This document shows positions 3 to 35,039 of a DNA stretch of 40,552 nt, piece by piece. The DNA comes from a virus (lineage: Duplodnaviria; Caudoviricetes). The position numbers were made by a program, and so were the translations under genes. The stretch lies in the IMG/VR virus record IMGVR_UViG_3300009075_000007, positions 1-40,552 of that record; one strand, given 5' to 3'. How positions within the stretch are numbered: position 1 is the first letter of the stretch; every line of letters begins with the position of its first letter. The notes under the pieces are model-generated. The model was given only the letters and a program-made list of their open reading frames with translations. It had not been told where the DNA came from and did no database searches.

Positions 3-3000
3 GGCGACCCACGCATCGCCGCGCCGGTCGACCCGAACCTCTGGGAGTCGTCGATCCTCGACGCCGGCTACGACGGTTACGTCAACCGCAGCAAGGGCAT
101 GGCTGTGGTGCTGGACGCCGACGTGCCGGCCACCTACGTCGGCGTGGACTACGCCGGCCCGAAGGTCGCTACGCCCGCCCCTGTCGCCCCGAGCCTGCTG
201 AAGCAGCCGCTGATGTCGGCCGAGATCGGCCCCGTCACGGCGGCGATCGCCGGCATCCCCGGTGCGCGCGTGCGCATGGGCACCCTCGAAGTGGCACAGG
301 CGAGCGTGCAGCAGGTCAACGCCGCGCTGTCGAGCGCCGGCCTCGGCGTGCAGATGAGCAAGCAGCGCGACGCAGCCGAGCGGTTCAATACCGAGCAGGT
401 CGAGAGCAACCGCGTGCCCAACTGGAAGGGTCGCGAGAAGTTGGTGCAGATGCCGCTCGATCAGTTCCTCGCGCTGTCCGAAGACGGGACAGACGAGACC
501 AAGGCGAAGCGCGTCGCCGGGATCATGGAGCGCGGCGAACAGTTCGAGACGTTGCCCTACATGATCGTCGAGAGCGACGGGCGGGTGACTGGCCACGAGG
601 GCCGCCACCGTGCCCGCTGGCTGCTGGCGAACGGCTACACCACGATGCCGGTCGTCCTGAAGTCGGCGAACATCCGCTGGAGCGAGCAGGCCGACCCGAA
701 CCGCTTCGACTACATCGACGACAGGGACTGGCCGAAGACCCTGCGCGCGCAGAAGGGCGCACCGGACGAGCGCTACACCGCCCCGTTCCCCGTCGCCCGC
801 GAAGACGCGATGCAGCCCTACCCGAGCGAGCCGGGCATCTCGAAGAGCACCGCGCGCACCGACATCACCAAGAGTGCGCAACGTGGCGGGATCACGGGCA
901 CCTCGGCGTTCAAACGGTGGTCGAAAGGCCTCCCCGTCGTCAACATCCGCGACAAGCACACCTTCAGGACTGGCGAAGGGCTCATCCTCTCCGGCATGCT
1001 TCATGGGTCTCCTCGGGCAAAAAGTCTGCGCGCGTTTAGAGAGGGCGAGATCGGAACCGGCCGCTTTGGAAGCGCCAGCAACAATAGGCTCGGATGGCAT
1101 TTCACCGACAACGCGGCACAGGGGGCGGAGTACGCGCTGATGGTGGATGCTTACGACATGTCGGAGAGGGAGCAGGCCAGATTCGAGCGCGTCGCCGACG
1201 GGGAGATGCTTCGGTCTGGAGAGGGCGTTGTCGAGACCTTCATCCGGCTCGAAAAGCCGCTGGTGATGGCCGGCCGCCAGTACGGTCGCTTCATCGAAGG
1301 AAAGAGCGAAGACGTGTCTGCCCTGCGCGTGTTCATGCAGGACAACGAGCACGATGGGGTTATCGTTGACTGGTCGAACAACGGCGCTCGCTCAACGCTG
1401 GCCGCTTCTTATATGGCGGTCTACGACGAGATGCTCGACAGATGGATCGACAAGTACAACGCTCTTTCCAAGAAGGACAAAACCGAAGTCAGAAACGCTG
1501 AAGCAGAGTTTCTGGCGTGGGCCGATGGCGGCGCGAGTTCTGAGTATCCGGCCGCAGCTATCGACACGCTTGTCGACAAACTCACTGACGGAACCAACCC
1601 TTTTATCGGCCGCTACCGGGCTTCTCCTGTCGGTGAAGACGTTCTCGAATATCTTGGCCTTTCTGTTGGTGTTCGGGAGTCCCTCCACAATCCCTTCTTC
1701 GCCGGCACTGAAGGCAGCCTCTGGGTGGTCGTCACGCCGGAAGCGGCAGGCCGTGGGCAGATCAAGTCCGTTCTCAACAACGGAAAATTCACCGACTCGC
1801 CGGACATCTACAAGAGCGCGCCGCGCTGGGGTGGCTTCTACAGCGAGCTCGCGAAGCAGGTCGACGCGCTGCCGACGAACAGCTCGGTGGCGACCGGCTG
1901 GAAGCAGGCGATCAAGAGTCTGACGCAGAAGGGTGTGAAGGTCGACGAGATCGAATGGTCTGGTGTGAACGAATGGCTCGACCTGCAGCCGGCGAAGGTG
2001 ACGAAGCAGCAGGTGCTCGACTACCTCGCGCAGAACGGGCCCACGGTCATCGAAACGGTGAAGAGCCCGCCCAACCTTCTCGCGGAAGAGCTGGAGTGGG
2101 ATTCGCTCGACGTCCGCGACGTGGATGACCCGCTGCCTGTCGCCACCAGCTTTCCGAGTGTGAGGCCCGATCGGATCTTCGAGGCGAAGCGTGACAACGG
2201 CCAGTTCGCTCGCTACGAGTGGGACTCGGTAGACGTCGGCGACGAAGACGACACGGTTTTCGAGCCGCACACTGTTGTCGAATACTTCCCTGACGGCGAG
2301 ACCCCTTGGCTTGTCTATTCCGGCCCACCGGAACGGATGAACGAGGAAATCGGTCGCTTTATCGGCGGCCGTTTTGCCCGCGAGAAAGGTGGGCTGCCCA
2401 AATTCAGCAAGTACACCGTCACCGGCGGCAATGACTACCGTGAGCTGCTGATTCGGCTGCCGTCCAAAGTAGATGCCGATGGTCTGCCTGCAGGCTATCA
2501 GGTGATCGACGAGGGCGACGGCCGGTGGAGCTTCAAGACGCCGACTCGTTCAAGCCGTATATTCACGTCGCGGGAAGACGCGGTCTCGGGCGCGCTGCAC
2601 GCGATGCGCAGGGAACGAGAAAACGGCGACGGCATTCGGAACGACTTCACCTACCCGGCACACTGGGAAGAGCCGAACGTCGTTGCGCACGTTCGATTCA
2701 AGGAACGCATGGACGCCGCCGGCGCGCGCGTGCTGTTCATCGAGGAAGGCCAGAGCGACTGGGCGCAGCAGGGCGGCGAGGAGGGGTTCGTCAACCCGGC
2801 AATAAAAGAAACGCGCCAAGCGATGTACGACCGCGTGCTCGACGCCCAGTATCGCGTCGAAGAAATTAAAGATTCTTTCTCGCTCACCTCCGATGACAAC
2901 GAGCTAACCAAGCTGGAGCTCGCTTACGCGGAGGCACGCGAGGAGGAGATCGCTGCTCGACGCGAGTGGGAGGAGTTCTCCGGGCGCGCCGGCGAGATCC

Positions 3001-6000
3001 CACTGGCCCCCTTCGTTGCGAAGCGCGAGTTCGCGGTCTTCAAGGACGGCGTCGAGGTCAAGGCGGCGAAGGACGGCCGCACGCAGCGCTACGGCACGAT
3101 GGAGGAGGCGCAGGCTGCGGCCAAACGTCTCGGTGGCGAAGCGCGCGACCTTGGCTACGGGGAGAACACGCCGGCGTGGGTCTCGCTCATGCTCAAGCGC
3201 ATGATCGGCTGGGCCGTGGAGAACGGCTTCGACAAGATCGCGTGGGCGACGGGCGCGCAGAGCGCCGAGCACTACAAGCTGGAAAAGCACGTCAGCAAGT
3301 TGGAGTGGATGGAGAACGAGAAAAAGCTCTTCGGCTATGACCCGAAGACCGAAATGATGACGGTCTCCGAGGCCGAGGTGACCCGCGAAAAGCTTCCGAA
3401 GTACATCGGCAAGGAGTTGGCCGAGCGGCTGGCCGGGCAGAAGAAGGACACCTTTGGCGTGCGGACGCTGGAAGGCGACGGCCTCGTCGTTGGTGGCGAA
3501 GGCATGAAGACGTTCTACGACAGCGTCTTGCCGAACATCGCCAACGAGGTGCTGCGAAAGCTGAAGGCAGAGACGAAGGTCGGCGTGATCGAGGTCATGC
3601 CGGATCGGCCTGTGACGACGCTGTCGGTGATAGAGGTCGACCCGAGTAATGACCCGGAGGCTGGCCAATCGTTGATCGCCGAAACAGACGAGATCGAAGG
3701 GGCCCGCTTTTTCGTCGTCAACGAAAACGGTTATCGGCTCGCCAACGCCGCCACGCGAGAGAAAGCAGAGGCCGAGCTCAAGCGCCGCCAGCGCCAGTTG
3801 AGTGCGAAGTTCGTCGGCCCGCAGCTCGGCTTCGAGATCACGCCGCAGCTAAAGGCGGCGGCCGAGCGCGGCCTGCCGCTGTTCAGCAAGCAGCGCTGGT
3901 TCGAGGGCTCGAAGGCAGTCGACGCGAACGGCGAGCCGCTGGTGCTGTACCACTCGACCGCGTCCGACGTCGACGCCTTCAAGACCAACTTCGGCGAAGA
4001 CGAGTACCGGCGCTTCGGTGCGCATCTCGGCAGCATCGAGGCGGCCGAGAATCGGATCGGGATCAAGGCTGCAGAAGACGAGGTCAACGGCGAGCGCGGC
4101 GGCAACGCGGGCGTGAACGTGATGCCCCTGCACCTGCGCGCCAAGAACCCGCTGCGGCTCGACGAGAACCGCACCGGACGGTGGGGCGTGGACGACATCA
4201 TGCGCGCCGTCATCGAGAAGGCCGAGGCGGGCGACCTGCCCGAGATCCCGGCCGACAGCAAGTTCGTCGACGACTACTACGAAGACGCCTCGCGCCTCGG
4301 CGGCAAGCGATCCAAGGTCTGGCAGGACGTCAACGACTGGCGTCCCGGCGAGCGCAGCGACGCCTTGCGCACATGGTTGGAGTCGCTCGGCTACGACTCG
4401 ATCGTCTACGCCAACGAGTTCGAGGGTGGTGGTGACAGCTACATCGCCTTCCGCCCCGAGCAGATCAAGAGCGCGATCGGCAACGAGGGCACCTTCGATC
4501 CGAAGGACGCCCGGATCACGAAGAGTGCCGACCGCAGCCAGTTCCTCGGCGCGCTCACGCCGGCGCAGGAGGCGGCCCTGCGCACGGCCGGCGCGATCGT
4601 GCAGCCGAAGACGTGGCAGGAGCGCTGGGCGACCTACAAGACCGGTCTCGGCCAGCGTGCCATTCAGGGCATCTTCGACCAGTTCGATCCGATCAAGCAT
4701 CTCGACCAAGAGGCCTACATGCAGGCCCGCATGTCGCGCGGGTCGGATGGCACGCTCGAAGCGGCGCTGCTCTATGGTCGCCCGAAGCTGGTCGACGGCG
4801 TACCCAACGTCGACATCAACGATCGCGGCTTCGCCAACGTGCTGGCCGACCTCGGCGCTGACACCGACCGCTTCTTCTGGTGGGTGGCCGCCAAGCGCGC
4901 GCAGCGGCTGAAGGCCGAGGGGCGCGAGAACCTGCTCACCGATCAGGACATCACCGCCCTGCTGACGCTCAACGAGCCGGTGGCCACTGACCCCGCGACC
5001 GCCGGCCGGGCGGCGCGCTTCTCGCGCGCGCTGGCCGAGCTGAACGAATTCAATGAGGCGATCCTGCGCATCGCACTCGAAAGCGACCTGATCGACAAGG
5101 ACGGTTACAACCTGTTCAAGGATCAGCCCTACGTCCCGTTCTACCGTGTGATGGAGGAAGAGGGCGGCATTCGCGGGCCGGGATTCGGCGGCGGACTGAC
5201 CAGCCAGTACATGTCGAAGAAGCTCAAGGGCGGCAGCGAGGCGCTGAATCAGGATCTGCTCGCCAACGTCCTCCTGAACTGGTCGCATGTCCTGTCGGCC
5301 AGCGCGAAGAACCGCGCCGCCGTCGCCACGATGGGCGCTGCAATGCAGGTCGGCGCGGTGCTGCAGGTGCCAGCGAGCACGCCGAAGTCGGTGCGGATCC
5401 GGGTCGAGGGGAAGGAGCAGCATTTCCTCGTCCACGACCCGTACCTGCTGGAAGCGATCAGCGCGATCGAATACGCCACGCCCCGCTGGTTCAAGCCCTT
5501 CTCGACCGTCAAGCGGTGGCTCACGATCGGCGTGACGGCGAGCCCGTCATTCAAGATCCGCAACCTGATCCGCGACTCGGTGCAGGCGATCGCCACGGGG
5601 CAGCTGAAGCCGAACCCGATCGGCAACGTGGCGCAGGGATTCAAGGCCAGCGCGAAGTCGACCCAGACCTACGCCTCGATGCTCGCCTCGGGCGGCATGA
5701 TCCGCTTCGGGTCTCTGGTCGAAGGCGACCGCGCGCACCACGTCCAGAGGCTGATCGACAAGGCCGGCCGCAAGGCACACATCCTCGACGAGCCCAGCTG
5801 GAAGAAGCTGCAGGGGCAGATGGTCACCCTGATCGAGGCCTACAACGAGCTCGGCGACCGCAGCGAGAACGTCAACCGCAACGCGCTCTACGAGCAGCTG
5901 CGCGCTAAGGGGGTCAGCCACCTCGAAGCGGCGTTCATGGCGCGCGACCTGATGGACTTCGCCATGGGCGGGACGTGGCCCGTGGTGCGATTCCTGACGC

Positions 6001-7037
6001 AGTCGGTGCCGTTCCTCAACGCCCGCCTGCAGGGCCTCTACAAGCTCGGCAGGTCGGCCAAGGACGACCCGGCGCGGGTCGGCTATGTCGTCGGCGCGGT
6101 CGCACTGGCCAGCCTCGCCCTGCTGCTGATGTACGGCGACGACGAGGACTGGAAGAAGCGCGAGGACTGGGATCGCGACACCTACTGGTGGTTCAAGATC
6201 GGCGACGTCGCCTACCGGATCCCGAAACCGTTCGAGATCGGCGCGATCGGCACGATCGCCGAGCGGACGTGGGAGCTGATGTTCGACAAGGAGATGACCG
6301 GCAAGCGCTACGGTCGCCGCACGCTCGAAATCATCACCGAGCAGTTCGCGATGAACCCGGTGCCGCAGATCGTCAAGCCGATGATCGACCTCTACGCCAA
6401 CCGCGACAGCTTCACCGGGCGCGCGATCGAGAGCATGGGCATGGAGCGCCGGCGGCCTGAGGACAGGGCCAGAGCGAGCACCAGCACGATCGCGCTCGCG
6501 CTTGGGCAGCTGGGCCTGCCGAACCCCGCGCAGCTCGCCAACGCCCGCTATGAGGCTCTGAGCCCGGTGCAGATCGATCACCTCGTTCGCGGCTACTTCG
6601 GCTGGCTCGGGACGGCCATCACGGCCGGCCTCGACTACGGCCTGCGTCCGATGAGCGACCGGGGCGCGCGGCCGGAGATGCGGCTGAAGGATGTCTTCCT
6701 CGCCGGCAGCTTCGTCGAGACCTTGCCCGCGAACAGCTCGCGCTACGTCACCGAGATGTACGAGCAGGCTCGGCAGGCGCAGCAGTTCTGGGCCAGCTAC
6801 CGGGACGCGGTGAAGTTCGGCGACACCGCGCGAGCGGCCGAGCTGATGGCCGAGAACCGCGAGCAGCTGGTGAAGGCGCGCAGGCTGTCGGGCTTCACCG
6901 ATGCTGGCGGGCAGCTCAACGAGCAGGTGCGCAGGATCGAGGCCAGCAGGAGTTTGTCGCCGGAGACGAAACGCAAGATGATCGATGCACTGGAGCAGCG
7001 CCGGAACCAGCTGGCGATGCGGGCAGTGGCACCGTAA
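3..7037 (+). CDS. Giant polyvalent protein, 5'-truncated: ParB-like domain, two ART-PolyVal-like domains, an 'EEGQSDW' domain and C-terminal LPD38; probable internal virion/ejected protein
   Basis: Frame is open from nt 3 (GDPRIAAP...ILDAGYDGYV), so the real start is probably upstream of the window. ParB-like 'VTGHEGRHR'; ART-like 'HGSP..GWHFTDN..HDGVIV..QIKS' and 'LYHST..LRAKNPL..GYDSIVY..PEQIKSAIGN'; LPD38 'DWDRDTYWWFKIGDVAYRIPKPFEIG'. Confidence 0.88.
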   Translation, partial: GDPRIAAPVDPNLWESSILDAGYDGYVNRSKGMAVVLDADVPATYVGVDYAGPKVATPAPVAPSLLKQPLMSAEIGPVTAAIAGIPGARVRMGTLEVAQASVQQVNAALSSAGLGVQMSKQRDAAERFNTEQVESNRVPNWKGREKLVQMPLDQFLALSEDGTDETKAKRVAGIMERGEQFETLPYMIVESDGRVTGHEGRHRARWLLANGYTTMPVVLKSANIRWSEQADPNRFDYIDDRDWPKTLRAQKGAPDERYTAPFPVAREDAMQPYPSEPGISKSTARTDITKSAQRGGITGTSAFKRWSKGLPVVNIRDKHTFRTGEGLILSGMLHGSPRAKSLRAFREGEIGTGRFGSASNNRLGWHFTDNAAQGAEYALMVDAYDMSEREQARFERVADGEMLRSGEGVVETFIRLEKPLVMAGRQYGRFIEGKSEDVSALRVFMQDNEHDGVIVDWSNNGARSTLAASYMAVYDEMLDRWIDKYNALSKKDKTEVRNAEAEFLAWADGGASSEYPAAAIDTLVDKLTDGTNPFIGRYRASPVGEDVLEYLGLSVGVRESLHNPFFAGTEGSLWVVVTPEAAGRGQIKSVLNNGKFTDSPDIYKSAPRWGGFYSELAKQVDALPTNSSVATGWKQAIKSLTQKGVKVDEIEWSGVNEWLDLQPAKVTKQQVLDYLAQNGPTVIETVKSPPNLLAEELEWDSLDVRDVDDPLPVATSFPSVRPDRIFEAKRDNGQFARYEWDSVDVGDEDDTVFEPHTVVEYFPDGETPWLVYSGPPERMNEEIGRFIGGRFAREKGGLPKFSKYTVTGGNDYRELLIRLPSKVDADGLPAGYQVIDEGDGRWSFKTPTRSSRIFTSREDAVSGALHAMRRERENGDGIRNDFTYPAHWEEPNVVAHVRFKERMDAAGARVLFIEEGQSDWAQQGGEEGFVNPAIKETRQAMYDRVLDAQYRVEEIKDSFSLTSDDNELTKLELAYAEAREEEIAARREWEEFSGRAGEIPLAPFVAKREFAVFKDGVEVKAAKDGRTQRYGTMEEAQAAAKRLGGEARDLGYGENTPAWVSLMLKRMIGWAVENGFDKIAWATGAQSAEHYKLEKHVSKLEWMENEKKLFGYDPKTEMMTVSEAEVTREKLPKYIGKELAERLAGQKKDTFGVRTLEGDGLVVGGEGMKTFYDSVLPNIANEVLRKLKAETKVGVIEVMPDRPVTTLSVIEVDPSNDPEAGQSLIAETDEIEGARFFVVNENGYRLANAATREKAEAELKRRQRQLSAKFVGPQLGFEITPQLKAAAERGLPLFSKQRWFEGSKAVDANGEPLVLYHSTASDVDAFKTNFGEDEYRRFGAHLGSIEAAENRIGIKAAEDEVNGERGGNAGVNVMPLHLRAKNPLRLDENRTGRWGVDDIMRAVIEKAEAGDLPEIPADSKFVDDYYEDASRLGGKRSKVWQDVNDWRPGERSDALRTWLESLGYDSIVYANEFEGGGDSYIAFRPEQIKSAIGNEGTFDPKDARITKSADRSQFLGALTPAQEAALRTAGAIVQPKTWQERWATYKTGLGQRAIQGIFDQFDPIKHLDQEAYMQARMSRGSDGTLEAALLYGRPKLVDGVPNVDINDRGFANVLADLGADTDRFFWWVAAKRAQRLKAEGRENLLTDQDITALLTLNEPVATDPATAGRAARFSRALAELNEFNEAILRIALESDLIDKDGYNLFKDQPYVPFYRVMEEEGGIRGPGFGGGLTSQYMSKKLKGGSEALNQDLLANVLLNWSHVLSASAKNRAAVATMGAAMQVGAVLQVPASTPKSVRIRVEGKEQHFLVHDPYLLEAISAIEYATPRWFKPFSTVKRWLTIGVTASPSFKIRNLIRDSVQAIATGQLKPNPIGNVAQGFKASAKSTQTYASMLASGGMIRFGSLVEGDRAHHVQRLIDKAGRKAHILDEPSWKKLQGQMVTLIEAYNELGDRSENVNRNALYEQLRAKGVSHLEAAFMARDLMDFAMGGTWPVVRFLTQSVPFLNARLQGLYKLGRSAKDDPARVGYVVGAVALASLALLLMYGDDEDWKKREDWDRDTYWWFKIGDVAYRIPKPFEIGAIGTIAERTWELMFDKEMTGKRYGRRTLEIITEQFAMNPVPQIVKPMIDLYANRDSFTGRAIESMGMERRRPEDRARASTSTIALALGQLGLPNPAQLANARYEALSPVQIDHLVRGYFGWLGTAITAGLDYGLRPMSDRGARPEMRLKDVFLAGSFVETLPANSSRYVTEMYEQARQAQQFWASYRDAVKFGDTARAAELMAENREQLVKARRLSGFTDAGGQLNEQVRRIEASRSLSPETKRKMIDALEQRRNQLAMRAVAP

Positions 7038-13138: not shown

Positions 13139-13431
13139 GACAGCCTGCGCCAAGAGGTGCCGAATCCGCCATGCGAGCGGCCGTTGGTGGAGATGCCGAT
13201 CGAGCGGATCAGCTTCTCGCGTTGGAGGCGTTTGGTGACTGCGCCCCAGACTCGGGGCTCGCGGGGCGCTATGCCGGCGGTGCGGGCGGCTGCGCGCAGC
13301 TCGCCCATCGTGAACGGGTCGCCGCTGGGCCGTTGGTAGAGCCAGCTGACTGCGAAGGCGAGGCAGCCGTGGTAATTGTTGTCGGGTGCTCGCGCCACGC
13401 GTGCGAGGGCCTCGTCTCTTCCGCAATTCAT
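13135..13431 (-). CDS. Conserved phage protein, probable winged helix
   Basis: 'PREPRVWGAV...LI..IG....SH......W' pattern; RBS GGAG. Confidence 0.7.
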   Translation of the reverse strand: MNCGRDEALARVARAPDNNYHGCLAFAVSWLYQRPSGDPFTMGELRAAARTAGIAPREPRVWGAVTKRLQREKLIRSIGISTNGRSHGGFGTSWRRLS

Positions 13432-13557
13432 CGCATCAGCTCCATCGGAATAGGTGCCGGGGCTCTCCCCGGCGGTCACGTCTAGTTCATGCCCTCTCGA
13501 CGTTCAGAGGCCCTCGCGGGCGGGACGGGGAGGCGGGCTCCCGCGAGAGACTGCGCT

Positions 13558-14124
13558 TTACGACAGGAAGTCGTCGTCGTCGGCGATTTCGTCGAAGTCC
13601 TCGGTGGCCGAGGTGCGACCCGACAGGCGTGGCCCATCGGCGACCTTCTGGATGTTCTGCAGTCCAGCGCCGACACCCTTGTTGCCGTTCTTGTTGAACG
13701 CGTAGAAGTTCAGCGACACGCGCGCGAACACCCCCGAGTAGACCTCGTCCTTGTCGAAGATCTCGTTCATCTGCCGATCCACGATGCCGGGCTTCTCGTT
13801 GCTCGAAGCGTTGAGAAACCAGCAGCCCTTGTAGACCGGATCGTCGGGCCGGTCGACGTCGCCGTCACGCAGCGGCATCTTCAGACCCGGCGGCAGCTTG
13901 CCGCCCCACATCGCCTTGCCGTTCTCCTTGGCGACCTCGCAGGCGCGCTTGATCCGCTCGACCGTGTCCTTGTCCGCCTTCGGGATCAGAATCGCCGTCG
14001 AGTATTTCAGCGCGCTGCCCTCATCCGGGCCGGCACGCGGCGTCCAGACGTTTGCATAGGAGAGGCGTACCTTGCCGGTGACCACCTTGGTCTTCGCGGC
14101 TTCCTGCTTTGCATCATTCGCCAT
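13558..14124 (-). CDS. DUF2815 family ssDNA-binding protein
   Basis: 'VRLSYANVW', 'PLRDGD', 'YSGVFARV', 'GLQNIQK', acidic tail DDDDFLS; adjacent to DUF2800. Confidence 0.92.
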   Translation of the reverse strand: MANDAKQEAAKTKVVTGKVRLSYANVWTPRAGPDEGSALKYSTAILIPKADKDTVERIKRACEVAKENGKAMWGGKLPPGLKMPLRDGDVDRPDDPVYKGCWFLNASSNEKPGIVDRQMNEIFDKDEVYSGVFARVSLNFYAFNKNGNKGVGAGLQNIQKVADGPRLSGRTSATEDFDEIADDDDFLS

Positions 14125-22718: not shown

Positions 22719-22750
22719 AAAAAAGGGGAGCCGGCTCGCGCCGGCCCCCC
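22719..22750 (-). terminator. Rho-independent terminator closing the leftward early operon
   Basis: Minus strand GGGGGGCCGGC-GCGA-GCCGGCTCCCC followed by T6. Confidence 0.85.
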
Positions 22751-23482: not shown

Positions 23483-23606
23483 AGACCCTCCAAAGGGCGG
23501 CGAGGTGTTCGAGCAGGTCTTCGTCGGACGCGACGACCGTGAACAGGTAGACGAGGATCACGACCGTGACGACGGTCAGGATCCAGTCACTCAGATTTTG
23601 GGGCAT
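23472..23606 (-). CDS. 44-aa membrane peptide (absent from ORF track)
   Basis: MPQNLSDWILTVVTVVILVYLFTVVASDEDLLEHL...; RBS AAGGAG. Confidence 0.65.
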   Translation of the reverse strand: MPQNLSDWILTVVTVVILVYLFTVVASDEDLLEHLAALWRVYVR

Positions 23607-23817
23607 CCCCCTTCTCCTTGTTTTGCTCGCGTCGTAGCAGCGAGCGACAGTTGAGCAGCGCGCGCGGGTCGCTGGGGGTCGTCGGCACGATCACGATCGC
23701 GCCACCGTGCGGGGCGTAGCAGTGGAAATGCCGCGCCCCGCGCTCGACCCGCCAGCCGGCGGCCTTGAACTCCTTCAGCAGGCGCGCGACGTCACGGTCG
23801 CTCGCCTTCGAGGTCAT
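23587..23817 (-). CDS. HicA-like toxin/RNase-fold protein
   Basis: 'GWRVERGARHFHCYAPHGGAIVIVPTTPSDPRALLN'; 76 aa; ATGA overlap. Confidence 0.7.
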   Translation of the reverse strand: MTSKASDRDVARLLKEFKAAGWRVERGARHFHCYAPHGGAIVIVPTTPSDPRALLNCRSLLRREQNKEKGDAPKSE

Positions 23818-24110
23818 GATGTCTTGCGAGCCGAGACCCGCACCATGTCGTACGGAGCACCGTGCTTGGTGTGCGCCGCAACCAGCTGCCTGCTGGGCTC
23901 GAACTTGGCCGCGATCGACTGCCAGTCGATCGTTGCGCGGCCGTCGCAGTGCGAGATGGCAGCCCGGTACGTCGCACCCTCGACGACGGGCAGGCCCGAG
24001 TCGATGAGCAGCGATTCGAGTGCTTCCTGATCGGCCTTCAGCGAGGCGATCGTGGCCTTGATCTGGCCGATGCGGTCGACTGCGACCGCGAGGGGAAGGG
24101 TCATGTCCAT
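23814..24110 (-). CDS. Conserved phage hypothetical protein with N-terminal coiled coil
   Basis: 'VDRIGQIKATIASLK...EG..YRA.IS...DWQSIA...PSRQLVAAHT'; RBS GGAG. Confidence 0.8.
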   Translation of the reverse strand: MDMTLPLAVAVDRIGQIKATIASLKADQEALESLLIDSGLPVVEGATYRAAISHCDGRATIDWQSIAAKFEPSRQLVAAHTKHGAPYDMVRVSARKTS

Positions 24111-24150
24111 TGTGTCTCTCCAGACTGTTCGCCGCGAGTGACGCGGTCGT

Positions 24151-24202
24151 TGGACTCATCAGTGCAGGGACTACCTGCAGACCGGCTCGCGCCGGTTTCG
24201 GC
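24151..24202 (-). ncRNA. Type II hammerhead ribozyme HH1
   Basis: GCC GAAA CCGGC-GCGA-GCCGG UC^ UGCAGG-UAGUC-CCUGCA CUGAUGA GUC; predicted cut 24180/24179; stem II has a mismatch. Confidence 0.88.
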
Positions 24203-24751
24203 TTAGAAAATCTTGTCTTCGCGGTTGACCGGCACGTCCCATGTCTTGCATAGCGCGCTCACCTTGGCGACAAGGAAGTCGAGCTTCGCCGACACGGTCA
24301 CGAGCTCCGCCTCCTGCGCCTTCAGCGCCGCCTGCAGCGCCTCGAACCGCTGGGTGGCGACAAGGCTGCGGCCGGCCTCTTCCACCCATTGAACGGGGAG
24401 CGGCTTGGGCGCAGGCGTCGGTGCCTGCACTCGGGCAGCCCGTTCGCGCCGCTTCGTTTCCAAGGCGTAGCGGGTGCGCTGGGCGTTCGATCGCGAGAGG
24501 GCGGACTCGAATGCCCTGTCGCCGAAGAGCGTGATGACGTGCCGTCGATTGGCGAAAGCGACCGTCCCGTCCTTCGTCTCCAGAACGCGGGTCAGCTGGA
24601 TCCCGTACCGCTCCGCGAACGCGACCGGATCGCGCGCCACGTTGGTGTGCCCGAGCGCCTTGCGGATTTGTCGGATCGTCACTTCCGATTTTTCGTCTGG
24701 CCTGCCGTCGAGGTGCTCGTCGAGGACTTCCAAGAACATGTCGAGGTTCAT
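24203..24751 (-). CDS. Hypothetical protein with C-terminal coiled coil
   Basis: ATG 24751 (MNLDMFLEV) overlaps upstream TGA. Confidence 0.75.
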   Translation of the reverse strand: MNLDMFLEVLDEHLDGRPDEKSEVTIRQIRKALGHTNVARDPVAFAERYGIQLTRVLETKDGTVAFANRRHVITLFGDRAFESALSRSNAQRTRYALETKRRERAARVQAPTPAPKPLPVQWVEEAGRSLVATQRFEALQAALKAQEAELVTVSAKLDFLVAKVSALCKTWDVPVNREDKIF

Positions 24752-24966
24752 GTCGTTTCCCCTTGCGCCAACGGCACGTTGCGCCCGTCGACGAAACGGT
24801 AGTTGACCGGCGCGTCGGTCTCGACGACGCCCGTGTCGATGACCGCCATCCAGCGGCCCATCAACTCGTCGGCCGAGGCCTGCGCCTCTTCGCGGGTCGC
24901 GAACACGAGCGCGTTGGTGTACAGCTTGCCAGTGCTGTCCGTTGAAACACCGGGTTTGAAGTTCAT
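24748..24966 (-). CDS. Conserved small phage protein
   Basis: 'NALVFATREEA...RW..V...VVETDAPVNY'; RBS GGAG; start 24966 or 24969. Confidence 0.75.
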   Translation of the reverse strand: MNFKPGVSTDSTGKLYTNALVFATREEAQASADELMGRWMAVIDTGVVETDAPVNYRFVDGRNVPLAQGETT

Positions 24967-25004
24967 CATCAGCTCCATCAGGTTGACCGCGAGTGACGCG
25001 GCTT

Positions 25005-25055
25005 TGCATCATCAGTGCAGGCACTACCTGCAGACCGGCTTGCGCCGGTTTCGCG
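25005..25055 (-). ncRNA. Type II hammerhead ribozyme HH2
   Basis: CGC GAAA CCGGC-GCAA-GCCGG UC^ UGCAGG-UAGUG-CCUGCA CUGAUGA U GC; predicted cut 25033/25032. Confidence 0.88.
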
Positions 25056-25589
25056 TTATTCGACGACCTTCCAGCCGCCGGGCAGCCCGTTGCCCCACGA
25101 GGAGCAGCGCTCGAAGCGGGTCGACCGGCTGCCGTCGGCCTTCAGCAGACGCACGACGAGGGTGCCCGGAGTAGGCAGGCCCCATTTCTTGTTGCTTGGC
25201 ACCGGGTCGCCTTCGACGAAGACCTCGACGATGCCGTAGAGGTTGCGGATGCTGTAGCCGCCGGCGCGTGCGAAGACCTTCTTGCCGACCATCGGGTGGC
25301 CGTTGGCGACCTCAAGGCGGGCCTTGCGAGCGAGATCCCATGCCTCGCTCATCTCCTGCTTCTGCGCGTCTATGCGACTTTTGTACGTGGCGTTGACTTC
25401 GGCCTCGACGGCGCGACTCGTGATGCCGATCTGCTCTCGCAGCGCATCCATTTGCCGGTTCAGATTTTCGAGCCGGGCGCGGGATAGAACGTCGTAGTGC
25501 TCCCTGCGTTCGCTTTGAAGGGCCTGCAACGCTCGATACGCGGCGCGGGCTTTATCCTCCAACTCGGTAACTTCTTCGGGGGTGAACAT
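25056..25589 (-). CDS. Hypothetical protein (coiled coil plus beta domain)
   Basis: RBS GGAGAGG; sits exactly between HH4 and HH2. Confidence 0.8.
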   Translation of the reverse strand: MFTPEEVTELEDKARAAYRALQALQSERREHYDVLSRARLENLNRQMDALREQIGITSRAVEAEVNATYKSRIDAQKQEMSEAWDLARKARLEVANGHPMVGKKVFARAGGYSIRNLYGIVEVFVEGDPVPSNKKWGLPTPGTLVVRLLKADGSRSTRFERCSSWGNGLPGGWKVVE

Positions 25590-25613
25590 GATTGCCTCTC
25601 CAGTTGATTGCGT

Positions 25614-25730
25614 CCCATACCCTCCCCTCGGCGGTCACACAGGGCGGGGTTGTTCGCCGCCATGCGCCCAGTCGCCACGATGGGATTCAGGAGAGGGTTT
25701 CGGCCCGTCGCCACGGGCCTCGTCAGTGGG
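25614..25730 (-). ncRNA. Type I hammerhead ribozyme HH4 with 60-nt insert in stem III
   Basis: CCCA CUGACGA GGCCCGU-GGCG-ACGGGCC GAAA CCCUCUCCU-(60 nt)-AGGGGAGGG UA^ UGGG; predicted cut 25618/25617. Confidence 0.85.
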
Positions 25731-26738
25731 TCAGTCGAGCAGCGCCAAGGCAGCCTTGAACGCTTCGGTCTTCAGCGCGTCGCCGGCACCGAACTCGGCG
25801 CTGTCCATCCGGTTGTCCGGGCTGCGCGAGCGCTGGTAGTGGTCGACGTACTCGGTCACGCCGTTCACCAGCCCCCACGCGGTGCCGGCCACGCCGGGCA
25901 GGTTCGCACCGCGACCCTTGCCGCCGAACAGCGCGAGCACGGTCTGGTAGCCGATCGAGTCGACGACCTTGCTGTTGCGAACGATCTGCGCCGCGTTCTG
26001 CGGTGCCGCGACTCCGCCCATCAGCTGCAGCGTCAGCAGCTGCGCCTCCTCCGGGCTGATCTCGCGCTTGGCCAGCTCGCGCGCCTGCGCCATGAAGCGA
26101 GCGAAGGCGACCGGCGCGACGCCGAGCTGGCGCTTGACCTTCGCCTCGTCGAACACGCTGCGGTGGCTCACCTTGACCATCGAACCGTTGGTCTCCTGCA
26201 TCGCAAACCCGAGCGTGTTCGAGCAGACGACGCGCTCGCTCACGCCCTTGGCGATCGTGTTCATCGAACCGTCGCACGCGGTCGCCAGCAGCAGCCGCGC
26301 GCCAACGAAGTCGTTCCGCACGACGTTGTCGCCAGCGCCAACATCGGCCTGCGCCCAGAACTTCTTGCCCCCGTGCAGCACGCCCGCCGTGGTCATCCTG
26401 AACCCCGCCTCGCGGATCAGGTCGGCGAAGAAGCTCAGCACCTCGCGCGGCTGAACGACCTGAAACGAGTCGCTGACGACCGCGAGCGGGGCCTTGGTGT
26501 CCGAGCGAAGCAGGACGTGGTAATCAGGCCAGACGGTCGGCGCGGCGACGTCTTCGCGCGAGGTGGCGAACCGCACCTTGCTGCGCTGGATCGTCCAGTC
26601 CATCCCGGCGGCCTTCTCCCAGACTTCGATCGGGGCATCGTCGGGCATCGCCTCGCCGAGGCCGTGCCAGATCGCGTTGCGGTCGCCGGTGAATGCCATC
26701 GCGGCGCGGCCCTTGGAAAAATCGATTGCGTGTGCCAT
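25731..26738 (-). CDS. DUF932 (TIGR03299-like) phage/plasmid protein
   Basis: 'WHGLG...AGMDW', 'VQPREV', 'TAGVLHGGKKFW', 'CDGS', 'RVVCSNTL', 'GTAWGLVNGVTEYVDH'. Confidence 0.92.
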   Translation of the reverse strand: MAHAIDFSKGRAAMAFTGDRNAIWHGLGEAMPDDAPIEVWEKAAGMDWTIQRSKVRFATSREDVAAPTVWPDYHVLLRSDTKAPLAVVSDSFQVVQPREVLSFFADLIREAGFRMTTAGVLHGGKKFWAQADVGAGDNVVRNDFVGARLLLATACDGSMNTIAKGVSERVVCSNTLGFAMQETNGSMVKVSHRSVFDEAKVKRQLGVAPVAFARFMAQARELAKREISPEEAQLLTLQLMGGVAAPQNAAQIVRNSKVVDSIGYQTVLALFGGKGRGANLPGVAGTAWGLVNGVTEYVDHYQRSRSPDNRMDSAEFGAGDALKTEAFKAALALLD

Positions 26739-26778
26739 TTGGGGTCTCCCTGTTGGCGTACCGGGAGCGGCCCGGCGT

Positions 26779-26835
26779 TGACTCATCGGTGCGAGAGCGA
26801 CTCGCAGACAGGCCCGCGTGGGGCCTGTTTCGTCA
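26779..26835 (-). ncRNA. Type II hammerhead ribozyme HH3 with CCGAUGA core variant
   Basis: UGAC GAAA CAGGCCC-CACGC-GGGCCUG UC^ UGCGAG-UCGCU-CUCGCA CCGAUGA GUCA; all three stems fully paired; predicted cut 26807/26806. Confidence 0.85.
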
Positions 26836-27060
26836 TCACCGGTTCAGCGCCCGGTGCCAGCTGGCCAGATACTCGGCTTCCCGCTGCGCCGTCGACGGGT
26901 CGTAGAAGGGCCGGCCTGTGAGGAACTCGCCGCCGGGCCCGGTCACCGTGTACCGGCGGGAATCCCTGTTGCCGTCGGTCTCCCAGACCTCGACGACGAA
27001 CGGGAAGGCCGGGCCGGCGCTATGGGCCTGAATGCCGGCGTTGTTCGATAGATGTCCCAT
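26836..27060 (-). CDS. Hypothetical protein
   Basis: ATG 27060 with RBS AGGAG. Confidence 0.7.
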   Translation of the reverse strand: MGHLSNNAGIQAHSAGPAFPFVVEVWETDGNRDSRRYTVTGPGGEFLTGRPFYDPSTAQREAEYLASWHRALNR

Positions 27061-27061
27061 G

Positions 27062-27355
27062 TCACTCTCCTGTCGCTTCGGTGATGGCCGTGAGCAGCCG
27101 TTCGCGCTGCGAGAAGTTGCCAGCAAGCCGAGCGTATTCCGCCGCCTCTCGCAAGGCGGTCAACATGATCGGAGCGGCCCGCATCAGCCGCGCGTTCGCC
27201 TTGGCCTCGTACCAGCCGGCCATCTTGTCTTCACGGGCCAGTACCTTGACCGCCGCGATCTGTTCGCCACTGGGCGCGTCGATGCGGGAGCTATCCCGCT
27301 GCGTGTCCGACACGTTGACGTGTACGGCCCAAGGGCCGGGGGTGTGCTTGTCCAT
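27062..27355 (-). CDS. Conserved phage protein (HTPGPW...ANARLxxAAP family)
   Basis: Both motifs present; RBS AAGGAG. Confidence 0.8.
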   Translation of the reverse strand: MDKHTPGPWAVHVNVSDTQRDSSRIDAPSGEQIAAVKVLAREDKMAGWYEAKANARLMRAAPIMLTALREAAEYARLAGNFSQRERLLTAITEATGE

Positions 27356-27367
27356 GTCAGTTCTCCT

Positions 27368-27538
27368 TCAGCGCAGCTTCAAAGCCTGCAGGATGTCGAA
27401 GCGGAGCTGGCCAGCGCCGAGCTCTCTGTACAGCGACTGCGCGTCGTTCTTGGCCACGGCATCGAGCACCTTGCGCAGCGTCCGTTCGAGGCTGTTGCGT
27501 TCGGCGACGAGCTTGTTGTATTCGGAGCGGGGGATCAT
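27368..27538 (-). CDS. 56-aa hypothetical protein
   Basis: ATG 27538 with RBS GGAG (MIPRSEYNKL...). Confidence 0.65.
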   Translation of the reverse strand: MIPRSEYNKLVAERNSLERTLRKVLDAVAKNDAQSLYRELGAGQLRFDILQALKLR

Positions 27539-27816: not shown

Positions 27817-28085
27817 GTCTGCCTCCCAGCAGTGCGATGCGACAGTTGCATCTGGCAGCGCCCCGTTGGGCGAGACGCTGCGGGCTGCAATATCAGGGTG
27901 TTTCCAAAGATCCAAGAGGCGTTATCTCCGCCTCTACCCTCGCGCTCCCCGATCAGTTGGCTCCGAATCGGCTCTCAGCGGTCTGGCCAGTGCGCCTCGG
28001 GTTTCCCCCTAGATCAGCGTCCAGCTGGTGCCCCTTTTGTATCCCGCTGGCCCTTCGCGGCCCGGCTAGTAGCGCCGGAGACCAA

Positions 28086-34133: not shown

Positions 34134-34532
34134 ATGGCACTTCAGTATTCGGACACCTATCGCAATGCGATGCTCGACGCGTTCGAGACCTCGGTCGGCA
34201 CAGACGCCAAGTTGCAGCTGCGCACCGGCGCGCAGCCGGCGACATGCGCCACGGCCGACAGCGGCACGCTGATCGCCGAGCTGACCCTACCGACCGATTG
34301 GATGAACGCCGCGTCGACGGGGTCGAAGACAAAACTCGGAACGTGGTCTGGAACGGCGAGTTCAGGCGGCACGCCGGCACACTTTCGCATCAAGAACAAC
34401 GCCGGCTCGACCTGCCACATGCAAGGCTCGGTCGGTCAGGGCACGGGCGACCTGTCGCTCGACAATACGACGATCACCAACGGCCAGACGATCACGATCA
34501 GCACCTTCACGCTGACCGCACCGGGTGCCTGA
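34134..34532 (+). CDS. Probable virion structural protein
   Basis: 'RNAMLDA...LQLRTGAQPA...GTLIAELTLP'; Thr/Gly-rich; RBS AAGGA. Confidence 0.75.
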   Translation: MALQYSDTYRNAMLDAFETSVGTDAKLQLRTGAQPATCATADSGTLIAELTLPTDWMNAASTGSKTKLGTWSGTASSGGTPAHFRIKNNAGSTCHMQGSVGQGTGDLSLDNTTITNGQTITISTFTLTAPGA

Positions 34533-34541
34533 TGAGCCGCT

Positions 34542-35039
34542 ATGCCGCATCACGTCTACCGATCCGGGTCGCCGATCCCGGTCGCAGCGCACGATGTCTG
34601 CCCTGCGTGCGGGCGTGCTTCGGACGAAGCGAAGCTGATGATCTACACGTCGAACCGCAAGATGAAGGTCGTGCCGATCGCGACCCTCACGGCGCTGCTG
34701 TCGAAGGACAAGTACGTCGAGCTGTGGGGCGACAAGGGCCTCGCCGGTCTGACTGGCATGTCCATCGTGGATCTTCTGCGCGAGTACCCGAAAGACTTCG
34801 TTCGCGTACACCGCAACGCAGCAGTCAGGCTGAACGCGATCACCGGTTCGACAGCGGCGCTCAACGAGACAGGCATCAGGCTCTTCGTCGAGGGCTGCCC
34901 CGAGGAGATCAAGGTCTCGCGGCGAGAGGTGGCGAACTTCACGTCGGCGATGGCCCGCACATTTACCTGCGAGCGGCAACAAAAGAGGCAGCCTCATGGA
35001 CTATGCAGCACTGAAGGCCGCGATCCTCGCGGAGACTGA
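34542..35039 (+). CDS. Solo LytTR-domain DNA-binding protein with N-terminal CxxC
   Basis: 'DKYVEL', 'FVRVHRNAAV...I', 'IKVSRR'; no receiver domain. Confidence 0.8.
   Translation: MPHHVYRSGSPIPVAAHDVCPACGRASDEAKLMIYTSNRKMKVVPIATLTALLSKDKYVELWGDKGLAGLTGMSIVDLLREYPKDFVRVHRNAAVRLNAITGSTAALNETGIRLFVEGCPEEIKVSRREVANFTSAMARTFTCERQQKRQPHGLCSTEGRDPRGD

What the first reader, a model, noticed from the sequence alone, without database searches (positions are those of the whole stretch)
24196..26838. Every ribozyme starts 0-4 nt after a stop codon: possible translation-gated cleavage
Seen: UAA-gcc-GAAA (HH1), UAA-cgc-GAAA (HH2), UGA-ugac-GAAA (HH3), UGA-ccca-CUGACGA (HH4). In each case the first strand of the open, weakest stem (2-4 bp) lies where a terminating ribosome would cover it, in both topologies. 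Inference: a ribosome at the stop would block folding, tying cleavage to translation of the upstream gene. After cleavage the upstream cistron ends in a strong hairpin and the downstream cistron gets a 5'-OH end, which is a poor substrate for 5'-monophosphate-stimulated RNase E.
Basis: partly seen in the sequence, partly recalled or inferred. Interest (0 to 1): 0.75.

Follow-up and report, generated by a model that had tools for sequence, protein, structure and literature searches.

The report
Phage hammerheads flush against stop codons
Four hammerhead-type RNA motifs sit directly after stop codons in a phage early operon, a layout common among phage hammerheads, and they likely cut one long message into hairpin-protected pieces instead of acting as a translation-operated switch.

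Summary
Observation confirmed: three type II and one type I hammerhead lie on the minus strand, and each core starts 3-4 nt after an in-frame stop. The layout is general. In 491 non-redundant phage hammerheads the open stem starts within 4 nt of the upstream stop in 92 of 112 type II and 143 of 171 type I. Gating as the selected function is not supported. Type III ribozymes sit a median 23 nt away, behind a separate hairpin (58 of 73). That hairpin and the type II stem III both start about 6 nt after the stop. One cultured phage spaces nine type II copies from -1 to 64 nt. A sister phage puts a non-hammerhead stem at two of these junctions. Best reading: near-constitutive processing into hairpin-capped mRNAs plus tight packing, with at most a modest ribosome-caused delay. 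This scan noted the same packing on other genomes. Side finds: a candidate kissing-loop type II variant and an RNase III-like element. No RNA data.

The parts
24152..24202 (-). HH1, type II hammerhead; predicted cut after 24180; stem I 6 bp, stem III 6 bp, stem II 1 contiguous pair (2 of 4 in register)
24132..24146 (-). 5-bp hairpin 3' of HH1; its loop is a candidate kissing partner of loop I (3 pairs)
24203..24751 (-). gene upstream of HH1 (182 aa, no family hit); stop UAA 24205-24203; replaced by 367 other bases in a related contig, with the break at 24200
23814..24110 (-). gene downstream of HH1 (98 aa); its homologue in G001 is preceded by the non-hammerhead element
24748..24966 (-). gene downstream of HH2 (72 aa)
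25006..25055 (-). HH2, type II hammerhead; predicted cut after 25033; U inserted after A9; stem II 2 bp; compensatory A-U to G-C change in stem I (25029/25019) in a strain contig
24987..25001 (-). 5-bp hairpin 3' of HH2; loop complementary to loop I over 4 pairs
25056..25589 (-). gene between HH4 and HH2 (177 aa); stop UAA 25058-25056
25610..25730 (-). HH4, type I hammerhead; predicted cut after 25618; stem I 4 bp, stem II 7 bp, stem III 10 bp with a structured 60-nt insert (25688-25629); 3-bp loop II/tail pseudoknot possible
25731..26738 (-). DUF932 gene (PF06067, E 2e-49; phrog_1221), flanked by HH3 and HH4; stop UGA 25733-25731
26779..26835 (-). HH3, type II hammerhead with C at core position 4 (15 of 150 surveyed type II share this); predicted cut after 26807; stem II 4 bp, whose 5' strand begins with a second in-frame UGA
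26761..26775 (-). 5-bp hairpin 3' of HH3 (2 central kissing pairs kept)
26836..27060 (-). gene upstream of HH3 (74 aa); stop UGA 26838-26836; G001 has a different gene here
27836..27896 (-). leader element: 10-bp stem, 4x4 internal loop, 11-bp hairpin; three more copies in G001, two of them at junctions where this window has hammerheads
22725..22750 (-). intrinsic terminator closing the operon, 2 nt after the last stop (22755-22753)

Best explanation
The four motifs are hammerhead folds placed between genes of one phage operon, and they likely cut its long early transcript near-constitutively into pieces whose new ends are predicted to be shielded by hairpins. They sit flush against stop codons probably because of tight packing, because the stop can supply a base the ribozyme needs anyway (the A just before stem II, or the core UGA), and because the upstream piece's end hairpin is kept close behind the stop (about 6 nt in types II and III). 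Passing and terminating ribosomes would melt the open stem for a moment. Unlike a terminator, a ribozyme can refold and try again, so the expected effect is a small delay, not a switch. Shown: sequence, folds, spacing statistics, covariation. Inferred: cleavage in the cell, end protection, kinetics.
For: Type III ribozymes, whose upstream product has no built-in hairpin, are displaced: 10 of 75 lie within 9 nt of the stop against 247 of 283 for types I and II (Fisher p 3e-34). 58 of 73 carry a separate hairpin of -7 kcal/mol or better before the cut, against 5 of 73 same-length coding controls and 14 of 43 type III without a nearby upstream gene (different search window). Stop-to-hairpin offset is alike in type II (median 6, n=102) and type III (6.5, n=58; p 0.13). 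An A precedes stem II in 83 of 95 stop-adjacent and 19 of 22 ORF-free type II; 23 of 26 cases at -1 are UAG; UAG is 38 of 106 against 125 of 796 ordinary stops (p 3e-6). Open-stem length does not differ between stop-adjacent and ORF-free copies (p 0.60 type II, 0.27 type I). 39 of 171 type I genes end on the core UGA. Streptomyces phage Daudau (NC_054668.1): gaps -1, 1, 1, 12, 13, 15, 20, 41, 64 by its deposited annotation. Sister phage G001 has a non-hammerhead stem at the HH1 and HH4 junctions, one copy starting inside the stop. Ordinary junctions are tighter still (stop to Shine-Dalgarno median -10, n=291). With assumed ribosome rates the slowing is 1.0-2 fold in 11 of 12 settings and 4-fold in one. 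Processing into gene-length mRNAs was proposed in PMC3088659 (passages and one section read).
Against: The 5' gap is tighter than an even split of the free spacer predicts (47 of 63 observed against 24 expected for type II; 49 of 68 against 17 for type I), though the 3' side must also hold the pseudoknot tail and ribosome-binding site. Terminators in the same loci lie farther from stops (median 20 nt, only 15 found). In PMC4824070 ribosome interference with a terminator reached about 27 nt, which would cover many type III cases. 13 of 58 type III hairpins overlap the ribozyme's stem III strand, a geometry a ribosome could relieve. HH1's stem II is among the weakest seen (1 bp in 3 of 150), so it may be slow or dead. 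The kinetic figures are assumptions. Cleavage was not measured.
Confidence: 0.68

Rival explanations
1. Translation-gated cleavage: type I and II hammerheads are kept within the terminating ribosome's reach so that cleavage occurs only when the upstream gene is weakly translated or ribosomes have cleared.
For: All four window cases, 92 of 112 type II and 143 of 171 type I lie within 4 nt. A genome-contig set repeats this: 27 of 37. The result holds with stricter gene calls. The 5' gap is tighter than the 3' gap and than terminator gaps. Ribosomes at a stop repress nearby terminator folding (PMC4824070).
Against: Type III is displaced. Gaps run from -1 to 64 nt within one phage. ORF-free copies have the same stem lengths. 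Upstream genes are unrelated and are swapped between relatives at the ribozyme edge. The 10-bp extension of HH3's stem II into the gene end is absent in G001. Occupancy estimates give about 2-fold (assumed rates).
Confidence: 0.12
2. The ribozymes mainly regulate the downstream gene: cleavage sets the stability or ribosome access of the next cistron, and stop adjacency is a by-product.
For: A Shine-Dalgarno motif follows the 3' stem end at a median 7-12.5 nt in all three types. Type II and III products begin with the stem I hairpin (structure). Copies exist with no upstream ORF. In this window a further hairpin follows each type II.
Against: It does not explain the added hairpin upstream of the type III cut, found in 58 of 73 with an upstream gene. 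It is compatible with the best explanation rather than exclusive of it.
Confidence: 0.12
3. The motifs serve chiefly as repeated boundary sequences for gene shuffling; the stop sits at the cassette edge, and some copies (HH1) are mosaics with little activity.
For: HH1 and HH2 share most of their sequence and the 3' hairpin. A related contig replaces the gene upstream of HH1 with the break at 24200. G001 joins a different gene to the HH3 homologue. HH1's stem II is mismatched.
Against: A compensatory stem I change in a strain contig and covariation across phages show selection on RNA structure. Cores are intact in all four.
Confidence: 0.08

Closest known systems
Clustered type I/II hammerhead ribozymes flanking genes in prophages and phages (Perreault et al. 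2011, PMC3088659; Rfam RF02276)
   Same: Core, three stems, very short stem II, several copies flanking single genes or short gene blocks, proposed processing of long phage transcripts (passages and section 8 read).
   Different: [quoted passage not shown] The window's type II copies lack the 4-bp-or-longer loop I/tail pseudoknot and have a 3' hairpin whose loop may kiss loop I. HH4 has a 60-nt insert in stem III.
Ribosome repression of intrinsic terminators near stop codons (Li et al. 2016, PMC4824070)
   Same: A ribosome at the stop blocks folding of an RNA structure a few bases downstream (passages read).
   Different: Termination is decided once while the polymerase passes; a hammerhead can refold later. 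Hammerheads sit closer to stops than terminators in the same loci (median 0 against 20).
RNase III processing signals with an internal loop (R1.1 type; PMC1540722 passages read; their origin in the T7 early mRNA is recalled)
   Same: Single cleavage at an internal loop leaves a protective 3' hairpin, the outcome proposed here. The 27836-27896 element and its G001 copies have about two helical turns with an internal loop.
   Different: These need a host enzyme and leave 5'-phosphate ends (recalled); hammerheads cut themselves and leave 5'-OH. The RNase III reading of the element came from earlier scan notes and is untested.
glmS ribozyme (PMC3997798, PMC6765202; passages read)
   Same: Self-cleavage in a bacterial mRNA giving a 5'-OH downstream product.
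   Different: Metabolite-triggered, in a 5' leader, and destabilising through RNase J1. No ligand or trigger is evident here.

Membership tests
Hammerhead ribozyme | Core C3-U4-G5-A6-N7-G8-A9, G12-A13-A14, A15.1-U16.1, H17 | tested here: met
   All four; HH3 has C at position 4, shared by 15 of 150 surveyed type II; HH2 has a U insertion after A9, shared by 30 of 150.
Hammerhead ribozyme | Three helices around the core | tested here: met
   Stems I/II/III: HH1 6/1/6, HH2 7/2/6, HH3 6/4/8, HH4 4/7/10. One- and two-pair stems II occur in natural hammerheads per PMC3088659.
Hammerhead ribozyme | Tertiary contact between stem I and stem II regions | tested here: inconclusive
   No loop/tail pseudoknot of 4 or more pairs (1-3 pairs). 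Candidate kissing with a 3' hairpin: two central pairs kept in 10 of 10, one compensatory change, in a set chosen on the hairpin loop.
Hammerhead ribozyme | Site-specific self-cleavage | not testable with these tools
   Needs in vitro transcription or RNA end mapping.
Rfam RF02276 Hammerhead_II | Score at or above the gathering threshold of 37 bits | tested here: not met
   HH1 33.8, HH2 33.0 (E 0.003, 0.005); HH3 no hit at E<=5; the G001 homologue of HH3 32.0. The type II topology itself is met.
Ribosome-controlled RNA switch (attenuator-like; features recalled) | Narrow, conserved stop-to-structure spacing | tested here: inconclusive
   About 82-84% within 4 nt for types I and II, but 7% for type III and 3 of 9 in phage Daudau.
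Ribosome-controlled RNA switch (attenuator-like; features recalled) | Dedicated short sensor ORF upstream | tested here: not met
   Upstream genes are ordinary 74-335 aa genes that differ between relatives.
Ribosome-controlled RNA switch (attenuator-like; features recalled) | Conserved alternative fold involving the coding region | tested here: not met
   HH3's stem II extension is absent in G001; the competitor strand in HH4's insert has pairing probability 0.0. Only HH3 and HH4 were tested.
Ribosome-controlled RNA switch (attenuator-like; features recalled) | Output changes with translation | not testable with these tools
   Needs cell or coupled in vitro assays.
RNase III internal-loop processing signal (element 27836-27896) | About two helical turns with an internal loop | tested here: met
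   10 + 11 predicted pairs around a 4x4 loop in 3 of 4 copies, a similar fold in the fourth; compensatory changes in the lower stem.
RNase III internal-loop processing signal (element 27836-27896) | Permissive proximal and distal box pairs | not tested
   The cut site is unknown, so the boxes were not assigned.
RNase III internal-loop processing signal (element 27836-27896) | Cleavage by RNase III | not testable with these tools
   Needs an enzyme assay or an rnc mutant.

The most novel reading that the evidence does not exclude
Type I and II phage hammerheads are ribosome-traffic sensors: held inside the terminating ribosome's footprint, they cut only once the upstream gene falls silent or ribosomes clear, so the early transcript is dismantled gene by gene according to translation load. 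In this phage the type II copies would use a kissing-loop scaffold that holds an otherwise marginal stem II ready to snap shut.
Probability: 0.12. Interest if true: 0.75.

Novelty: new member of a known kind. Interest (0 to 1): 0.27.

Why it matters
The role of self-cleaving ribozymes in phages is described as largely open (PMC6765202, passages read). The survey here turns the question into a sharp test: what stays constant is an end hairpin about 6 nt behind the stop, not the ribozyme's position. That predicts a stabilising role for the upstream message. A cultured phage (Daudau, nine copies with natural spacings from -1 to 64 nt) offers a ready test system. If gating were shown instead, it would be a new way of linking translation to mRNA processing without a protein nuclease. 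The locus itself is an ordinary member of a known arrangement that this scan has met several times.

Tried and rejected
No RNA holder listed among 17 sequencing runs. Rfam found no twister, pistol, hatchet or other ribozyme in the window at E<=5 and nothing on the 27836-27896 element's copies in G001 at E<=10. Fitting that element by eye to twister, pistol, HDV-like and permuted hammerhead layouts (layouts recalled; PMC10085705 passages read) gave no consistent fit. Searches for more copies gave 5 viral loci (three G001 copies, the window's own phage, one chance match inside a gene) and 13 metagenome loci (one of the window's length, the rest without the fold or gene context). The first hairpin search gave 43 loci, of which 3 were hammerheads. 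A split by host group was too small to read (Bacillota 5 of 7, Pseudomonadota 5 of 6 within 4 nt; labels set by hand for 80 of 125 loci), and G+C bins showed no trend. HH3's 10-bp stem II extension was rejected as a switch because G001 lacks it. The swapped gene's stop position in the related contig could not be read because two records were merged. Regions near a Pseudomonas and a gammaproteobacterial phage hit held no hammerhead. Felletti et al. 2017 (PMC5785228), on ribozymes in bacterial 3' untranslated regions, is not held and may bear on novelty. No paper on translation-gated natural hammerheads appeared in the listings; subscription journals and bioRxiv supplements were not searchable.
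Full report
Setting. The window is a whole 40,552-base virus record with terminase, portal-like, DNA polymerase A, primase and helicase genes. Terminase and DUF932 relatives of 80%+ coverage are at most 55% identical and the best rows are phages of Proteobacteria, so a proteobacterial host is a weak inference. The finding lies in a minus-strand run of 14 small genes from 27816 to 22753 (my own codon-model gene caller), closed by a terminator 2 nt after the last stop. 'Early operon' is inferred from gene content.

Observation. A structure scan of both strands found exactly four hammerheads: HH1 (type II, G12 at 24199), HH2 (type II, 25052), HH4 (type I, C3 at 25726) and HH3 (type II, 26831). 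Each follows an in-frame stop, with the core starting 3, 3, 4 and 4 nt later. Stem II is 1 contiguous pair in HH1, 2 in HH2 and 4 in HH3; stem I of HH4 is 4. Rfam gave sub-threshold RF02276 hits to HH1 and HH2 only. A strain contig in run X5 carries two changes in HH2's stem I that turn one A-U pair into G-C (25029 and 25019; one contig), which points to selection on the fold.

Survey. 606 distinct hits passed stem filters, 555 had at least 280 nt upstream and lay outside genes (1 dropped as inside a gene), and clustering on the upstream sequence left 491; one of them is this phage's own HH3. With a same-strand gene ending within 150 nt, the open stem starts within 4 nt of the stop in 92 of 112 type II, 143 of 171 type I and 5 of 75 type III (medians 0, 0, 23). 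38, 54 and 41 clusters had no such gene called. Stricter gene scores keep the pattern, and off-frame stop triplets are about 5 to 12 times rarer there. A genome-contig scan repeated it: 27 of 37 type II within 4 nt (45 of 125 loci held a passing hit). The patterns fix parts of the stems, so the sample is not unbiased.

What the spacing tracks. Type I and II upstream products end in stem III by construction; type III products would end unpaired. 58 of 73 type III with an upstream gene have an added hairpin that ends a median 6 nt before the cut, against 5 of 73 coding controls and 14 of 43 without a nearby gene (search windows differ). That hairpin starts a median 6.5 nt after the stop; type II stem III starts at 6 (p 0.13). 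So the constant appears to be a hairpin just behind the stop, not the catalytic core. The fine register has a simple source: an A precedes stem II in 83 of 95 stop-adjacent and 19 of 22 ORF-free type II, and the rare UAG stop is enriched where it overlaps that A and the first stem base. That this A is the loop II tertiary-contact base is recalled, not tested. In type I, 39 of 171 genes end on the core UGA.

Natural variation. Streptomyces phage Daudau has nine type II hammerheads in 10 kb with gaps of -1, 1, 1, 12, 13, 15, 20, 41 and 64 nt by its deposited annotation; it is one phage found through a weak match, and tiny ORFs could be unannotated. In sister phage G001 the HH3 homologue follows a different gene whose stop forms 3 of the 4 bases of the stem II strand. 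At the HH1 and HH4 junctions G001 has no hammerhead but a long stem with an internal loop, one copy beginning inside the stop. A related contig swaps the gene upstream of HH1 with the break at 24200.

Results against this reading. The 5' gap is tighter than an even split of the spacer predicts (47 of 63 against 24; 49 of 68 against 17). Terminators lie farther out (median 20, n=15). Ribosome interference with a terminator reached about 27 nt in E. coli (PMC4824070, passages), more than the 9-nt reach I assumed from recall. 13 of 58 type III hairpins overlap stem III and could be ribosome-relieved switches. None of this shows gating, but it keeps a minority case open.

Mechanism. Steps shown: folds, positions, covariation, slot exchange. 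Steps inferred: cleavage after 24180, 25033, 25618 and 26807; upstream products ending in stem III; type II downstream products starting with the stem I hairpin and a 5'-OH; protection from host nucleases. A terminating ribosome must unfold the open stem, but with assumed initiation rates of 0.02-0.5 per second and dwell times of 0.5-1.5 s the stem is free most of the time (1.0-2 fold slowing in 11 of 12 settings, 4-fold in one). 5'-OH protection depends on the host; RNase J1 attacks such ends (PMC3997798, passages).

Side result. All three type II copies are followed by a 5-bp hairpin. Among 50 folded hits of a scan for type II with this loop I class, 4 had such a hairpin, and 3 of these had a stem II under 4 bp, against 1 of the other 46. 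In ten aligned examples the two central loop-loop pairs hold in 10 of 10, with one compensatory change (C-G to U-A in HH1 and HH2, a single event), the outer A-U in 8 and the fourth pair in 4. The set was chosen on the hairpin loop and partly on loop I, so this is a lead, not a result.

Comparison and novelty. Arrays of hammerheads flanking phage genes, with processing as the proposed role, are described in PMC3088659 (passages, section 8 and a term search of 11 supplements) and reviewed in PMC6765202 (passages). Neither main text contains 'stop codon', and no paper on translation-gated natural hammerheads showed in the listings. PMC5785228 could not be read. Earlier notes of this scan report the same packing on other genomes, the type III hairpin and two-state hairpins in ribozyme slots; they are leads, not support, and the RNase III idea is taken from them. 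Verdict: a real, ordinary member of a known arrangement; gating unproven and unlikely as the selected function (about 0.12); interest 0.27.

Noticed in passing
window 27836-27896 (-); L672 minus strand, three copies (G001): Uncatalogued element: 10-bp stem, 4x4 internal loop, 11-bp hairpin, with compensatory changes; its 3' part can refold as a 5-6 bp hairpin, so a cut in the loop would leave both pieces hairpin-ended. It replaces hammerheads at two junctions in G001. No Rfam hit; no further copies found.
   Followed up: partly
window 24132-24146, 24987-25001, 26761-26775 (-); L093, L642, L848, L850, L867, L636: Candidate kissing-loop variant of type II hammerheads: a 5-bp hairpin after the ribozyme whose loop can pair with loop I, mostly in copies with a weak stem II.
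   Followed up: partly
window 25629-25688 (-): HH4's stem III encloses a structured 60-nt insert that repeats the loop II sequence and shares a 10-base stretch with the region after HH1's hairpin; no Rfam hit.
   Followed up: partly
L896:679-8480 (Streptomyces phage Daudau, NC_054668.1): Nine unannotated type II hammerheads in the right-arm operon of a cultured phage; four are preceded by the same short repeated motif.
   Followed up: partly
window 24200-24772: A related contig replaces this gene by 367 other bases with the break at the ribozyme's 5' edge; further joints at 27056-27368 drop another gene of the operon. This suggests modular gene exchange.
   Followed up: partly
window 23587-23817 (-): Weak HicA-like hit (PF07927, 19 bits, cut-off 27) with no HicB partner seen among the neighbours scanned.
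   Followed up: no
window 99-7037 (+): 2312-aa gene matching phrog_18222 over its C-terminal 850 residues, with a weaker DNA methyltransferase family hit.
   Followed up: no
L673:149-282 (-), G001: Weak PrrB/RsmZ hit (26.6 bits, gathering 44) just before the operon's terminator in the sister phage; a possible CsrA/RsmA-binding RNA, or chance.
   Followed up: no
window 13431-14114 and 34532-34996: Long stretches with no called gene and no hammerhead or Rfam hit.
   Followed up: no
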